DNA of 64,000 bases from an uncultured Alphaproteobacteria bacterium (GCA_944391465.1 CALXTS010000005.1:2942-66941); one strand, 5' to 3'; counted from the first letter of the stretch, positions 49,257 to 62,319 are shown. A program made the numbers and translations. The notes: generated by a model from the sequence alone, not told the origin.

Positions 49257-49274
49257 AATTCCAACCTGTAAACT

Positions 49275-49365
49275 GGTGGAGAACCGCGACCCCGAAAACA
49301 TTCGTTACGGCTGCTTCCTTCCGGACCTGACCGGATTGGCGACGATTCGACCCGCCGTCCTCCGG
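49275..49365 (-). ncRNA. ffs: Signal recognition particle RNA (4.5S)
   Basis: Minus strand GGAGGACGGCGGGTCGAA...GGTCAGGTCCGGAAGGAAGCAGCC...GGTTCTCCACC contains the conserved SRP helix-8 motif; lies upstream of dnaX. Confidence 0.95.
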
Positions 49366-49426
49366 TAAACAAAGATAACAGAAAGCTCTTAATTTTCAAG
49401 TTTTATTCTGAGTTACTGTCAGATAA

Positions 49427-51806: not shown

Positions 51807-52149
51807 CTATCGAAAAGGGCATTTTGCAGAAAAATTGGCGGCAATGTATTTGCTGATAAAAGGCTATTGGCCGCTGGCGTTTAACTATTCGGGCGGGAAA
51901 GGAACACACGCCGGAGAAATAGATTTGATTGTCCGCCGCGGCAAAACGATAGTCTTTGTAGAGGTTAAGCAGCGTACAGATTTGGTAAACGCGGCTTATG
52001 CGATTCAACCGTCACAACAGGAGCGGATTCGGCGCAATGCGGAAGCCTTTCTCTCTCGTTGTCGAAACGCAAAAAATTGTTCGATTCGTTTTGACGCGAT
52101 TTTGATAAGCTATCCTTTAAGCATTAAACATCTTCCAAACGTATTTTGA
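51799..52149 (+). CDS. yraN: YraN family (UPF0102) protein
   Basis: G..AE..A..YL..KGY, GEIDLIV, VFVEVKQR, IRFD; ATG 51799. Confidence 0.92.
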   Translation: MNNYRKGHFAEKLAAMYLLIKGYWPLAFNYSGGKGTHAGEIDLIVRRGKTIVFVEVKQRTDLVNAAYAIQPSQQERIRRNAEAFLSRCRNAKNCSIRFDAILISYPLSIKHLPNVF

Positions 52150-52217
52150 TTTTTATCTTTTATAAGCAATTGCAAAAATAAATTATTCTGTTAAGATAAG
52201 AACACTTATAAAAAAGA

Positions 52218-52470
52218 ATAACTGTGCAAGCAGTTATCCGGAGGGCTAGAGATAGTCCGGGCGAATTGACGTTTGCCTGATAAGACACAAGCAGTATCTG
52301 GATATAATACTGCAACTCGTTTATAGAATTTTTTATAAACGGGACTATATCCCCGATTGTAAAATCTTTTATGGTCGGGGAGGCCCGAAGGGTTCGCCTG
52401 TAGGGTTCCATTGCTTGTGTCATGGTAACGTCAACCTTCCCGGCCGCCTTTCCTCAGGCGGTTTTTCTTT
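52218..52470 (+). ncRNA. Structured cis-regulatory RNA resembling phage C4/CI antisense RNA with upstream target sites and a terminator
   Basis: Series of stems whose non-canonical pairs are G-U on the + strand. Closing stem 52373-83/52435-45. Loop TGCTTGTGTC and linker AACGTCAA are complementary to GACACAAGCA (52284) and TTGACGTT (52266). Terminator 52444-52470. Confidence 0.65.
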
Positions 52471-52494
52471 AGCCGAAAAAAGAAAGGAAAGCCG

Positions 52495-52890
52495 ATGGAA
52501 AATTTTATCTTGGACTACCAAAAACGTTACGAAGCAGAACAACAACGTCTGGAAAAAGAAGAAAAACTAAAAGCCCAAGCTCTGGCCGAAAAAAACAGAC
52601 TGTTTTATCAAGATATCGGTAATTTTATCCGGAAACATCGTGAGCGCCGAAAACTAAGCCAAACCGCTTTAGGAAGAAGAATAGGCTGTTCAGGGTTTCG
52701 CTTAGCCGATTATGAAAACGCCCGAAGCCGTATCAGCCTTTATAATTTTGCTCAAATTTGTAGGATTCTTGAAATTGATTATGACTATTGCGGTGGTTTG
52801 CAATTGTCCTCGGAAGAAAAAATTTGGATAGATATACTTCGTCGCCGCGATATAAAATCCGTAGCCGAATGGTTGGCTAAAGAAATTTGA
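52495..52890 (+). CDS. XRE-family helix-turn-helix protein
   Basis: IGNFIRKHRERRKLSQTALGRRIG.S...ADYENARSRIS...ICRIL; AAGGA RBS; N-terminal coiled coil. Confidence 0.85.
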   Translation: MENFILDYQKRYEAEQQRLEKEEKLKAQALAEKNRLFYQDIGNFIRKHRERRKLSQTALGRRIGCSGFRLADYENARSRISLYNFAQICRILEIDYDYCGGLQLSSEEKIWIDILRRRDIKSVAEWLAKEI

Positions 52891-52894
52891 ATTA

Positions 52895-53971
52895 TTAAAG
52901 CGGATTCGCTTCGCTTTTTTTAGATTTTAATTGTCCGCAAGCCGCCAAAATGTCTTGCCCGCGCGCCACTCTTATCGGAGCCTCGTATCCTGCGTTTTCC
53001 AACTCACGAGAAAACGCATGAACCTTGTTGTTTGAGCTCGGTTCATAAGAACACCCCGGCCACGGGTTGAACGGGATTAAATTAAATTTGGCGCCGATTT
53101 TGTACTTTTTCATCAGTTGGATTAACTCACGCGCATCATCAAGTGAATCATTAAAATCTTTTAGCATCAAGTATTCAAAAGTAATATATCTTCCCCGACC
53201 GACAATCTCCTGATATTCCTGACAGGCTTTTAACACTTCTTCAATCGGGTAACGGTCATTAATCGGCATAATTTGCGAGCGTTTTTCATTGTTTGGCGCA
53301 TGCAGACTAATAGCTAATTTAACGCCCAAATCACGAGCAACGGAAGCAATTCTAGGGGCGATTCCCGAAGTTGAAAGCGTGATTTTTCTCTTTGAAATGG
53401 AGATTCCTTCTCCATCGGACAATATTTTTAAAGCCTTAAAAGTATTTTCGGGATTATGCAAAGGTTCTCCCATACCCATAACGACAATATTAGACAAGAA
53501 ACGAGTTTCATCGGTAGGTGTCGGCCATTCGCCGTAAGCATCTCTGGCAACCATAAACTGAGAAACAATTTCTCCCGCCGTCAGATTTCTTGTAATTTTT
53601 TGGCTTCCTGTATGGCAGAACTTACACCCGACGGCGCATCCGACTTGCGTCGATATGCAAACCGCACCTCTGTCTTCTTCCGGAATATAAACCGTTTCGA
53701 TTCTTTGTCCGTCGGCAAATTCCAAAAGCCATTTATGCGTTTTGTCTTTAGATATTTGTTCGGCAACAATCTTCGGACGGCTTATGGTATAGAGCTCTTT
53801 GAGTTTTTCGCGCAAATCTTTTGATAAATTACTCATTTTATCAAAATCAGTTTCCCCTTTCAGATAAATCCACTGCCAAAGCTGTTTGGCACGAAAAGGC
53901 TTCTCTCCGATTTTAATAATTTCGGCGGCTAATTCTTCTTTTGATAAACCAATGAGCTCAATTTTATCCAT
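52895..53971 (-). CDS. rlmN: Dual-specificity RNA methyltransferase RlmN
   Basis: CISTQVGCAVGCKFCHTG radical-SAM motif, NIVVMGMGEP, ISLHA, NLIPFN, RGQDILAACGQL. Confidence 0.97.
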   Translation of the reverse strand: MDKIELIGLSKEELAAEIIKIGEKPFRAKQLWQWIYLKGETDFDKMSNLSKDLREKLKELYTISRPKIVAEQISKDKTHKWLLEFADGQRIETVYIPEEDRGAVCISTQVGCAVGCKFCHTGSQKITRNLTAGEIVSQFMVARDAYGEWPTPTDETRFLSNIVVMGMGEPLHNPENTFKALKILSDGEGISISKRKITLSTSGIAPRIASVARDLGVKLAISLHAPNNEKRSQIMPINDRYPIEEVLKACQEYQEIVGRGRYITFEYLMLKDFNDSLDDARELIQLMKKYKIGAKFNLIPFNPWPGCSYEPSSNNKVHAFSRELENAGYEAPIRVARGQDILAACGQLKSKKSEANPL

Positions 53972-59194: not shown

Positions 59195-59270
59195 TGGTGG
59201 AGCCAGGGAGGATCGAACTCCCGACCTGTTGATTGCGAACCAACCGCTCTCCCAACTGAGCTATGACCCC
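59195..59270 (-). tRNA. tRNA-Ala(CGC)
   Basis: GGGGTCATAGCTCAGTTGGGAGAGCGGTTGGTT-CGC-AATCAACAGGTCGGGAGTTCGATCCTCCCTGGCTCCACCA; G3:U70, encoded CCA. Confidence 0.95.
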
Positions 59271-59314
59271 ATTTTAATCAAAAAACCGCTAGCAATCGCA
59301 GCGGTTCAAAAAAA

Positions 59315-59390
<76 letters not shown>

Positions 59391-62194: not shown

Positions 62195-62305
62195 AAGAGA
62201 CGCATGGTGCGTTTCTCATAACACACGCAGGTAACGGGGGCTGCTTTTAAGCCTCACACCGGTGTCTTACAGAAGACCGAGAGCCTGCGGAGGTTTAACC
62301 GGAAA
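62195..62305 (+). promoter_or_regulatory. rpsB 5' leader (S2 autoregulatory RNA structure)
   Basis: ACACACGCAGG...CCTGCGGAGGTTTAACCGG with CGCAGG/CCTGCG stem and internal hairpins directly upstream of rpsB. Confidence 0.6.
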
Positions 62306-62319
62306 AAAAGGATAATAAA

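What the first reader, a model, noticed from the sequence alone, without database searches (positions are those of the whole stretch)
52218..52890. Solitary C4/CI-like antisense RNA switch controlling an XRE gene outside any prophage
Seen: a GC-richer ~250-nt leader behind a TTGCAA-16-TAAGAT promoter. A 73-nt unit (52373-52445) is closed by an 11-bp stem GGTCGGGGAGG/CCTTCCCGGCC. It contains a small CCC-GAA-GGG hairpin, a CCAT/ATGG hairpin displaying TGCTTGTGTC, and an unpaired AACGTCAA. These two segments are exactly complementary to upstream GACACAAGCA (52284-93) and TTGACGTT (52266-73, in a hairpin loop). A competing hairpin (52350-52381) sequesters the 5' arm, and the 3' arm overlaps a terminator (CCGCCT/AGGCGG plus U-tract) just before the RBS. 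Non-canonical pairs are G-U on the + strand. Established: phage P1 C4 and P4 CI RNAs are processed from their own leader and use two short antisense elements to cause premature termination. Unusual: no downstream second target set that I could find, no phage genes, and the only cargo is an XRE protein between yraN and rlmN. Inference: a domesticated or hitch-hiking RNA switch, possibly sensing or blocking incoming elements.
Basis: partly seen in the sequence, partly recalled or inferred. Interest (0 to 1): 0.75.

Follow-up and report, generated by a model that had tools for sequence, protein, structure and literature searches.

The report
Self-addressed c4-like leader RNA before XRE gene
A folded RNA of about 265 bases in front of a small regulator gene carries both a phage-c4-like antisense unit and its own matching target, and it is one member of a large, uncatalogued family of such leaders in small-genome gut bacteria rather than a lone phage relic.

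Summary

**Homologues.** I recovered 14 further leaders of this XRE type. In all 15, the two short antisense elements (a', b') and their upstream partners (a1, b1) change together.
- Cognate complementarity is 13-18 nt; non-cognate pairs average 8.7 nt.
- Two near-identical pairs of leaders differ almost only in these elements.

**Family placement.** The 3' unit has the c4/CI architecture. Rfam C4 is the only family that touches it, but below threshold: 20.9 bits here and 38.2 bits in a relative, against a gathering score of 45.

**Two first-reader claims fail.**
- It is not solitary. The same genome holds 3 more units, in front of genes that start with signal-peptide-like sequences. 50 of 56 genomes of the genus have 1-9 units.
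- The lack of a second target set is a property of the family, not a gap in this copy.

**Switch.** A three-way covariation shows that the "competing hairpin" and the c4-like closing stem are both conserved alternatives, so this is a two-state leader.

**Mechanism and scan history.** Whether it acts in trans, and in which direction, is not settled. The Bartonella Brt/Trp modules look like the same kind. This scan noted c4-like leaders before XRE genes, and this leader type before secreted-protein genes, on other DNA earlier.

The parts
52170..52197 (+). Putative sigma-70-type promoter: TTGCAA, 16 nt, TAAGAT. The expected transcript start is near 52204.
   Evidence: Sequence. The TTGCA(A/T) box is conserved in 4 of 4 aligned homologues. 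It falls below the cut-off of the consensus scan. The start site is inferred.
52218..52237 (+). P0, the 5'-terminal hairpin ATAACTG/CAGTTAT.
   Evidence: By my reading of the aligned sequences, the stem changes on both sides between homologues: CTG/CAG to CCG/CGG.
52243..52258 (+). P1 hairpin GGGCUA-GAGA-UAGUCC with a GNRA-type loop. It is invariant in XRE-type leaders.
   Evidence: Identical in 14 of 15 leaders. In the fifth (L113) two letters differ: the loop reads GAGG, and a stem G-U is G-C, a one-sided change that keeps the pair. Its role is unexplained.
52260..52277 (+). P2 hairpin presenting target element b1 (TTGACGTT, 52266-52273) in its loop and 3' flank.
   Evidence: The stem co-varies: CG/UA 8:7 at one pair and AU/GC at another. 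b1 is complementary to b' in 15 of 15 leaders.
52284..52293 (+). Target element a1 (GACACAAGCA). It is single-stranded and overlaps the foot of P3.
   Evidence: Complementary to the a' loop. It co-varies across 15 leaders.
52292..52341 (+). P3 (52292-52312) and the variable hairpin P4 (52318-52341).
   Evidence: Both are predicted by RNAalifold, with changes on both sides of several pairs.
52350..52356 (+). Region 1 (UCCCCGA), the anti-arm. It pairs with the 5' arm to form the competing hairpin 52350-52382.
   Evidence: Its sixth base (52355, aligned column 16) co-varies with region 2: G-C in 18 and A-U in 22 of 51 distinct units.
52373..52445 (+). The c4-like unit. 5' arm 52373-52383; variable hairpin 52384-52405; a' hairpin 52408-52425 with loop TGCTTGTGTC at 52412-52421; b' AACGTCAA at 52427-52434; 3' arm 52435-52445.
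   Evidence: Rfam C4 aligns over model positions 1-87 at 20.9 bits. The closing stem and a' hairpin are in the RNAalifold consensus. Own model R1 scores it 103.2 bits.
52446..52449 (+). Tail G-C-C-U directly 3' of the closing stem.
   Evidence: R-C-C is kept in 51 of 51 distinct units and the U in 50 of 51, including units with no terminator hairpin. A metatranscriptome contig ends at 52446.
52444..52470 (+). Intrinsic terminator: CCGCCU/AGGCGG, a 6-nt loop, then UUUUUCUUU. Its first two C are also the last two bases of the 3' arm.
   Evidence: Listed by the terminator scan. By my reading of the aligned sequences, the stem changes on both sides in relatives: CCGCC/GGCGG to CCACC/GGUGG.
52483..52890 (+). 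Ribosome site (AAAGGAAAG, 52483-52491) and the XRE-family gene (ATG at 52495, 131 aa).
   Evidence: HTH_31 8.7e-10 and HTH_3 2.8e-07. PHROGs give only generic repressor and regulator families.

Best explanation
This is a self-addressed, two-state leader RNA of the c4/CI kind. One promoter makes a transcript of about 265 nt. It first presents two short 'address' elements: b1 in a hairpin loop and a1 single-stranded. About 130 nt later comes a c4-like unit whose loop (a') and junction (b') are complementary to them.

The unit's 5' arm can pair in two ways. It can pair with an upstream anti-arm (helix 1:2), or with the 3' arm (helix 2:3, the c4 fold). Pairing of a1/b1 with a'/b' locks the 1:2 state. 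That leaves the intrinsic terminator before the XRE gene intact, so the default product is a stable short leader RNA and little XRE.

Anything that occupies a1/b1 removes that lock and lets 2:3 compete. The most likely occupant is free copies of the same RNA acting in trans on the nascent transcript, as P4 CI RNA does on seqA. This would change read-through.

Shown: the anatomy, the conservation of both alternative helices, and the co-variation and specificity switching of the address pairs. Inferred: trans action, the direction of the effect, and processing of the unit.
For: **Architecture**
- Rfam C4 aligns end to end with the unit at 20.9 bits.
- A relative reaches 38.2 bits, E 0.0011 in a 62-kb search.
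- No other Rfam family competes at the units.

**Address pairs**
- 15 of 15 leaders have 13-18 nt of cognate complementarity, against a non-cognate mean of 8.7 nt.
- In the wider set of 50 units, cognate a matches of 8 nt or more occur in 37 of 50, mostly at -49 to -83, with b 10-20 nt further upstream.

**Specificity switching**
- L081 and L108 differ at 10 of 271 columns. 8 of these lie in b1/b' and all are compensatory (P 6e-9).
- L053 and L073 differ at 17 columns, 12 of them in a/b (P 1e-7).
- The four units of this genome all carry different addresses.

**Two states**
- One position of region 2 co-varies with both partners. The triples are G-C-G in 18, A-U-A in 16 and A-U-G in 6 of 51. 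A second position shows U-A-U in 2.

**Energetics**
- In 11 of 15 leaders the MFE is 1:2 plus cis address pairing.
- In the 10 terminator-bearing leaders, forcing 2:3 costs 5-19 kcal/mol.
- With a1/b1 blocked, the two states lie within -6.2 to +6.9 kcal/mol of each other.
- In the window the 2:3 state cuts the terminator stem from 6 to 4 pairs.

**Expression hint**
- In two metatranscriptome runs from two studies, the only contigs on 51900-52950 are 52227-52446 and 52288-52525. DNA runs cover the whole stretch.

**Precedent**
- P4 CI RNA pairs with seqA upstream and seqC downstream of itself and causes termination. IsrK acts in trans on its own read-through form (passages read in PMC4825925).
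- The 3' end of Bartonella Brt1 is an attenuator for the XRE gene trp1 (passages read in PMC8070961).
Against: - No trans target was found. In this genome the only other two-part site (C8:51140, b exact, a with 2 mismatches) lies inside a large ORF that I take from recall to be a pyruvate:ferredoxin oxidoreductase gene; no family search was run on it. It may well be chance.
- 3 of 3 orphan units tested in other genomes had no exact two-part target apart from their own opposite strand.
- Co-variation proves pairing but not that it is intermolecular.
- With a1/b1 blocked, the MFE moves to 2:3 in only 3 more leaders (L014, L016, L108). It does not move in the window copy, whose 1:2 hairpin is long.
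- The direction is ambiguous. In 5 of 15 leaders (L053, L073, L081, L108, L113) there is no separate terminator hairpin, and the 2:3 stem followed by a U-rich run would itself be the stop signal. That is the opposite logic.
- The Rfam thresholds are not met.
- The RNA evidence comes from assembled contigs at depth 2-4. They cannot show ends, strand or level, and DNA carry-over cannot be excluded.
Confidence: 0.55

Rival explanations
1. A purely cis-acting attenuator or riboswitch-like leader. The a1/b1:a'/b' pairing is only an intramolecular long-range clamp of one folded state. An unknown ligand, protein (for example the XRE product or a factor binding the invariant P1 hairpin) or physical cue flips 1:2 to 2:3. 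No RNA acts in trans.
For: - The MFE pairs the elements in cis in 11 of 15 leaders.
- The cis partner is always present at high local concentration.
- No trans target was found.
- The invariant 16-nt P1 hairpin is not explained by the antisense model.
- The Brt literature proposes a riboswitch or heme response (passages read).
Against: - Neutral drift of an internal helix does not explain why 8 of 10 and 12 of 17 differences between near-identical leaders fall in the address elements.
- It does not explain why co-resident units all differ in address.
- Orphan units with a' and b' but no cis target exist.
- No Rfam riboswitch matches.
Confidence: 0.3
2. Primarily a stable small-RNA gene. The terminated leader or the processed unit regulates distant mRNAs in trans through a' and b'. 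The XRE gene is only a passive downstream neighbour.
For: - Only the leader is seen in RNA contigs.
- Brt1 is among the most abundant transcripts in B. henselae and is proposed to act in trans (PMC5387305 results section; PMC8070961 passages).
- There is one two-part site inside a large ORF on contig C8.
Against: - The leader is fused to a downstream gene with no visible promoter of its own in 15 of 15 copies.
- The address elements change too fast to track conserved cellular targets.
- The single candidate site is inside a coding region and has 2 mismatches.
Confidence: 0.1
3. A relic or hitch-hiking piece of a phage or satellite immunity region, which now senses or blocks incoming related elements.
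For: - c4/CI-like layout.
- The XRE cargo has generic phage-repressor-like profiles.
- The module looks inserted between yraN and rlmN. These two genes abut in 13 of 29 other loci of the genus, and modules sit at that site in only 3 genomes.
- One copy lies on a scaffold filed as 'UNVERIFIED Bacteriophage sp.'.
Against: - No phage genes lie around this or the other examined copies.
- None of the 6 viral-contig matches to the 16-mer is a leader.
- The same unit precedes signal-peptide genes in this genome.
- It is present in 50 of 56 genomes of the genus, so it is a lineage-wide device.
- The 'phage' scaffold carries a large cysteine-rich secreted-protein gene and no recognisable phage gene by ORF inspection.
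Confidence: 0.05

Closest known systems
c4 antisense RNA of phages P1 and P7 (Rfam C4, RF01695), with its upstream a1/b1 motif (c4-a1b1, listed in Weinberg et al. 2010, PMC2864571 table)
   Same: - The unit's ends are joined by a long stem, with two inner hairpins, a' in the second loop, b' in the junction and an R-C-C tail.
- It is co-transcribed behind an a1/b1 copy of its target.
- Specificity sits in two short elements that differ between relatives.
- Rfam C4 is the only family that matches: 20.9 bits here and 38.2 bits in a relative.
   Different: - Below the gathering score of 45.
- The closing stem has 10-11 pairs, against 17 in the Rfam consensus.
- No a2/b2 target at the downstream ribosome site in 15 of 15 copies.
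- Chromosomal, multi-copy and not in a phage.
- Followed by its own terminator and an XRE or surface-protein gene.
- An extra competing anti-arm.
- The P1 details (RNase P processing, icd/ant control) are recalled, not read here.
CI RNA of satellite phage P4, with seqA and seqC
   Same: An untranslated leader RNA carries an antisense element that pairs with a complementary sequence upstream of itself in the same transcript and controls transcription termination (passage in PMC4825925).
   Different: - P4 also has a downstream target (seqC), which is absent here.
- P4 terminators lie between the promoter and cI and further downstream (recalled from Briani et al. 2000, not read). Here the only terminator follows the unit.
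- No sequence similarity was tested.
IsrK / STnc1160 of the Salmonella Gifsy-1 prophage
   Same: A short terminated leader RNA and its read-through form share complementary sequences. The short form acts in trans on the long form (PMC4825925 abstract listing, passages).
   Different: It is prophage-borne and acts on translation of a downstream ORF. No homology was tested here.
Brt1-9 / Trp1-9 modules of Bartonella (Tu et al. 2016, PMC5387305; review PMC8070961)
   Same: - An abundant, structured leader of about 200 nt lies directly before an HTH-XRE gene that lacks its own promoter, in many copies per genome, and its 3' end acts as an attenuator.
- The one copy I could fetch (pBGR3) folds with the same plan: a 5' hairpin, the b1 and a1 segments paired with b' and a', an anti-arm/5'-arm hairpin, and a 3' arm followed by ACC.
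- Its HTH gene is 45% identical to the XRE behind leader L096 (E 3e-27).
   Different: - My model R1 and Rfam C4 do not detect it.
- Only one copy was examined, so there is no co-variation test.
- The window's own XRE is only 28% identical.
- The Brt papers, in the parts I read, describe a riboswitch or attenuator. I found no c4-type self-addressing there, though 'C4' itself could not be searched.
sRNA-Xcc1 (Rfam RF02221)
   Same: The same general plan in the Rfam consensus: a GGCCGGGG/CCCCGGCC closing stem, two hairpins and an ACC tail, as seen in the alignment. Earlier notes of this scan name it as closest for similar XRE leaders.
   Different: It gives no match to the window unit at E up to 10. 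The 49.5-bit match I saw lies on the Bartonella plasmid, not here.

Membership tests
Rfam C4 (RF01695) | Covariance-model score at or above the gathering score (45 bits). | tested here: not met
   The window scores 20.9 bits, E 0.15 in 461 nt. There is no gathering hit in the window or in the genome. The best relative, L045, scores 38.2 bits, E 0.0011. L014, L015 and L016 give nothing at E up to 5.
Rfam C4 (RF01695) | Fold: a long stem joining the 5' and 3' ends, two inner hairpins, a large second loop (a') and an unpaired junction (b'). | tested here: met
   The alignment to model positions 1-87. The RNAalifold consensus on 15 leaders keeps the closing stem and the a' hairpin.
P1/P7 c4 system | a' and b' are complementary to an upstream a1/b1 pair in the same transcript. 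| tested here: met
   10 + 8 nt in the window. 15 of 15 leaders have 13-18 nt, and the elements co-vary.
P1/P7 c4 system | A second target set (a2/b2) at the ribosome site of the controlled downstream gene. | tested here: not met
   No second two-part site within about 1.5 kb (3 kb for the window) in 15 of 15 leaders, allowing 1 mismatch per element.
P1/P7 c4 and P4 CI | Processing of the unit out of the leader (RNase P at the 5' end) to a small stable RNA. | not testable with these tools
   Only indirect evidence. The R-C-C tail is kept in 51 of 51 units, and one RNA contig ends at 52446. Contigs cannot show ends. The RNase P fact is recalled.
P1/P7 c4 and P4 CI | Location in a phage or satellite immunity region. 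| tested here: not met
   The neighbours are rsmI, yraN, rlmN and an IalB-like gene. Other copies lie among housekeeping genes.
c4-a1b1 motif (Rfam) | A covariance-model match on the upstream target region. | tested here: not met
   Not among the matches at E up to 10 on 52100-52560.
P4 CI / seqA / seqC | Complementary sites both upstream (seqA) and downstream (seqC) of the antisense unit. | tested here: not met
   The upstream site is present and the downstream one absent.
sRNA-Xcc1 (RF02221) | A covariance-model match. | tested here: not met
   No match at E up to 10 on the window region or in 20 related loci.
Bartonella Brt/Trp | A structured leader of about 200 nt with a 3' attenuator directly before an HTH-XRE gene, in many copies. 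| tested here: met
   The arrangement is the same, compared with the paper's results section and review passages.
Bartonella Brt/Trp | Sequence or structure homology of the RNA. | tested here: inconclusive
   R1 gives no hit on pBGR3 at E up to 0.01. The MFE of the single copy shows the same plan, z = -5.0. The XRE behind L096 is 45% identical to the plasmid's HTH gene. The window XRE is 28% identical, E 1e-9.
Known riboswitch or ribozyme classes | A match to any curated aptamer or ribozyme model. | tested here: not met
   None at the gathering score in the window. None at E up to 10 on the leader.

The most novel reading that the evidence does not exclude
The leaders form a programmable RNA 'address' network. 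Each gene for a regulator or surface protein in these small-genome gut Alphaproteobacteria carries its own two-part barcode. Free c4-like units, including the orphan units that lack a cis target, read these barcodes in trans. This would let the cell count, exclude or coordinate paralogous genes, for example to give one-at-a-time expression of variable surface proteins or to exclude incoming copies. The Bartonella Brt/Trp virulence circuit would be a branch of the same system.
Probability: 0.15. Interest if true: 0.85.

Novelty: new variant of a known kind. Interest (0 to 1): 0.68.

Why it matters
c4- and CI-type antisense control is a textbook feature of a few phages of enteric bacteria. Here the same design appears as a lineage-wide chromosomal gene-control module.

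- It has a single, self-addressed target set and an added competing helix.
- It occurs in 50 of 56 species-level genomes of an uncultured gut genus, before regulators and before genes that start with signal-peptide-like sequences.
- No family in Rfam 15 reaches its gathering score on it.

It also gives a concrete, testable structural reading for the Bartonella Brt RNAs. Their mechanism is open in the parts of the papers I read.

The rapid, compensated switching of the two address elements is a natural example of orthogonal RNA-RNA recognition. It could be tested with simple compensatory mutants.

Tried and rejected
**Other copies by blastn**
- In the own genome, blastn found only the leader itself. 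The further copies were found only with a covariance model.
- blastn against plasmids found nothing.
- Against phages it found 2 unverified virome scaffolds.

**16-mer scan**
- The P1 16-mer matched 6 viral-contig loci. None is a leader.
- It matched 81 genome-contig loci, of which 14 are leaders and 3 of those duplicate earlier loci.
- All 81 went through a motif filter. I read 24 loci in all by eye, chosen by title: the 6 viral loci and 18 of the 81. The rest (Alicyclobacillus, Corynebacterium, Glutamicibacter repeats and others) failed the filter and were not read.

**Second target set**
- None was found near any of the 15 leaders.
- Genome-wide, one imperfect site lies inside a large ORF on contig C8.
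- Trans targets of the three orphan units tested returned only their own opposite strand.

**Rfam and tRNA checks**
- The Atu_C6 and suhB sub-threshold matches (17.2 and 13.2 bits) fit only the closing stem and the terminator, so I rejected them.
- No tRNA or tmRNA was found.

**Brt**
- The BrtF primer was not found on pBGR3 with up to 3 mismatches. The BrtR site was found by eye with 1 mismatch.

**RNA runs**
- The parts of 51900-52950 without RNA contigs in X19 and X20 cannot be read as silence.

**Papers**
- Sabbattini 1995 (PMC176756) and Hartmann 1995 (DOI) are not held. P1 and P4 details beyond the passage are recalled.

**Class-wide sample**
- R1 matched 2 of 149 other families, with strict filters. 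That means 'not found in those searched', not absent.

Full report
**1. The observation**

- TTGCAA (52170-52175), a 16-nt spacer and TAAGAT (52192-52197) precede a leader of about 265 nt.
- The unit 52373-52445 is closed by GGTCGGGGAGG/CCTTCCCGGCC.
- Inside it, a CCAT/ATGG hairpin displays TGCTTGTGTC (52412-52421) and an unpaired AACGTCAA (52427-52434).
- These are exact complements of GACACAAGCA (52284-52293) and TTGACGTT (52266-52273). The latter lies in the loop of hairpin 52260-52277.
- A competing hairpin (52350-52382) takes the 5' arm.
- The 3' arm shares two C with the terminator CCGCCT/AGGCGG + TTTTTCTTT (52444-52470).
- The ORF 52495-52890 is an HTH_31/HTH_3 protein.
- The fold energy of 52200-52500 is 7.2 standard deviations below shuffles.

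**2. Rfam**

No family reaches its gathering score on the leader.
- With permissive thresholds the best match is C4 (RF01695): 20.9 bits, E 0.15, covering the whole model at 52367-52451.
- The own genome gives the same single sub-threshold match.
- In a 62-kb search of 20 related loci, one relative (L045) reaches 38.2 bits, E 0.0011, still below 45. No other family matches any unit.
- L014, L015 and L016 give nothing at E up to 5.
- Neither c4-a1b1 nor sRNA-Xcc1 appears for the window.

**3. Homologues**

- blastn in the 56 genomes of the genus found three full-length relatives. Two had been picked up on the wrong strand, because the leader is self-complementary.
- A scan of public genomes for the invariant 16-mer added 11 more loci, all from gut Alphaproteobacteria MAGs. 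One of them (L063) is cut off by a contig end and was not used.
- blastn against phage records added a copy on an unverified virome scaffold.
- Fifteen leaders were aligned.
- RNAalifold predicts hairpins P1-P4, the closing stem and the a' hairpin. 17 of 46 pairs are kept through changes on both sides.

**4. The address pairs**

- In every one of the 15 leaders, a1 matches a' and b1 matches b'. The summed longest complements are 13-18 nt.
- Non-cognate combinations average 8.7 nt. About ten distinct specificities occur.
- L081 and L108 differ at 10 of 271 columns. 8 of these are in b1/b' and all are compensatory (P 6e-9).
- L053 and L073 differ at 17 columns, 12 of them in a/b (P 1e-7).
- None of the 15 has a second two-part site nearby.

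**5. Not solitary**

I built a covariance model (R1) of the unit plus its anti-arm.
- It finds units in 50 of 56 genomes of the genus, 1-9 per genome where present.
- It finds four in this genome: the window copy (103 bits), and C1:21865-21993, C18:1324-1466 and C35:7515-7660 (39-47 bits).
- The last three precede ORFs that start with signal-peptide-like sequences. Each has its own a1/b1-a'/b' pair, different in each.
- Earlier notes of this scan had described that leader before cysteine-rich secreted-protein genes. They had also described c4-like leaders before XRE genes in other genomes.
- In a sample of one genome per family of the class, 2 of 149 other families match.

In 50 units with enough upstream sequence:
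- 37 have a cognate a match of 8 nt or more, mostly at -49 to -83, with b 10-20 nt further upstream.
- At least six units are 'orphans' without a cis target: L073:1981, L073:2084, L053:935, L053:856, L120:1501 and L121:658.

**6. Two conserved alternative helices**

In 51 distinct aligned units, one position of the 5' arm co-varies both with the anti-arm and with the 3' arm.
- The triples are G-C-G in 18, A-U-A in 16 and A-U-G in 6.
- A second position shows U-A-U in 2.

So both helix 1:2 and helix 2:3 are maintained. These counts are not independent events, because the two main triples largely follow the two subfamilies.

**7. Energetics**

- In 11 of 15 leaders the MFE contains 1:2 together with the cis address pairing.
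- In the 10 terminator-bearing leaders, forcing 2:3 costs 5-19 kcal/mol.
- With a1/b1 blocked, the two states differ by only -6.2 to +6.9 kcal/mol.
- With a1/b1 blocked, the MFE moves to 2:3 in 3 more leaders, but not in the window.
- In the window the 2:3 state shortens the terminator from 6 to 4 pairs.
- Five leaders have no separate terminator hairpin. There the closing stem followed by a U-rich run would itself be the stop signal.

The direction of the switch is therefore open.

**8. Expression hint**

- Two metatranscriptome runs from different studies each hold one contig on 51900-52950: 52227-52446 (220 nt, exact) and 52288-52525.
- Two DNA runs cover the whole stretch.
- This fits an abundant leader RNA with some read-through. 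But the contigs are at depth 2-4 and cannot show ends or exclude DNA.

**9. Context**

- The flanks are rsmI, yraN (UPF0102), rlmN and an IalB-like gene.
- yraN and rlmN abut in 13 of 29 other loci of the genus.
- Modules occupy that site only in G000, G012 and G010. So the module looks inserted.
- Downstream genes of the 15 leaders are HTH/XRE proteins in 10 and a small unknown protein in 5.
- Around two copies in another genome I found divergent HTH genes and housekeeping genes, and no phage genes.

**10. Comparison**

- The layout is that of P1 c4 with a1/b1 and of P4 CI with seqA, but without a2/b2 or seqC (for P4; P1 details recalled).
- The Bartonella Brt/Trp modules share the arrangement and the attenuator property.
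- The one Brt copy I could fetch, on pBGR3, folds with the same plan.
- Its HTH gene is 45% identical to the XRE behind L096.
- Neither R1 nor Rfam C4 detects that Brt copy.

**11. Verdict**

This is a real, conserved, two-state leader RNA of the c4/CI kind that carries its own target. It is a new variant of a known kind and one member of a large uncatalogued family.
- Firm: the structure and the co-variation.
- Inferred: trans action, direction and processing.

Noticed in passing
G000 contigs C1:21865-21993, C18:1324-1466, C35:7515-7660 (outside the window): Three further c4-like units with their own upstream a1/b1 pairs and terminators. Each lies directly before an ORF that starts with a signal-peptide-like or lipoprotein-like sequence.
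   Followed up: partly
L073:1981-2081 and 2084-2160; L053:935-1035 and 856-932: Tandem 'orphan' c4-like units follow the small unknown ORF behind a leader. They have a' and b' elements different from the leader's and no cis target. The closing stem is followed directly by GCC + UUUUU.
   Followed up: partly
L115 (Bartonella grahamii plasmid pBGR3) 25880-25967, minus strand: An sRNA-Xcc1 (RF02221) match at 49.5 bits, just under its gathering score of 53. It lies about 500 nt from the Brt copy on the same plasmid.
   Followed up: no
G000 contig C8:51140-51168: The only other two-part site for the window's a'/b' in the genome (b exact, a core 8 of 10, similar spacing). It lies on the sense strand inside a 1177-aa ORF whose N-terminus looks, from recall, like pyruvate:ferredoxin oxidoreductase. 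No family search was run. It is probably chance.
   Followed up: partly
window 52888-52897: The stop codons of the XRE gene and of the convergent rlmN are 4 nt apart. A terminator-like hairpin at 52897-52917 lies inside the end of rlmN on the + strand.
   Followed up: no
L113 (MT837687, filed as UNVERIFIED Bacteriophage sp.) 161-2578: The scaffold that carries a leader copy also encodes an 805-aa cysteine-rich secreted protein and two XRE genes. No recognisable phage gene was seen by ORF inspection. It is probably bacterial DNA in a virome.
   Followed up: partly
window 49269-49366, 59198-59390, 62222-62317: Rfam gathering-level matches elsewhere in the window: small SRP RNA, two tRNAs and the rpsB sRNA motif.
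   Followed up: no
L182:4580-9166 (G056 contig C4): Four consecutive ORFs (113, 103, 745 and 420 aa) without any Pfam match follow one leader-small-ORF module.
   Followed up: no
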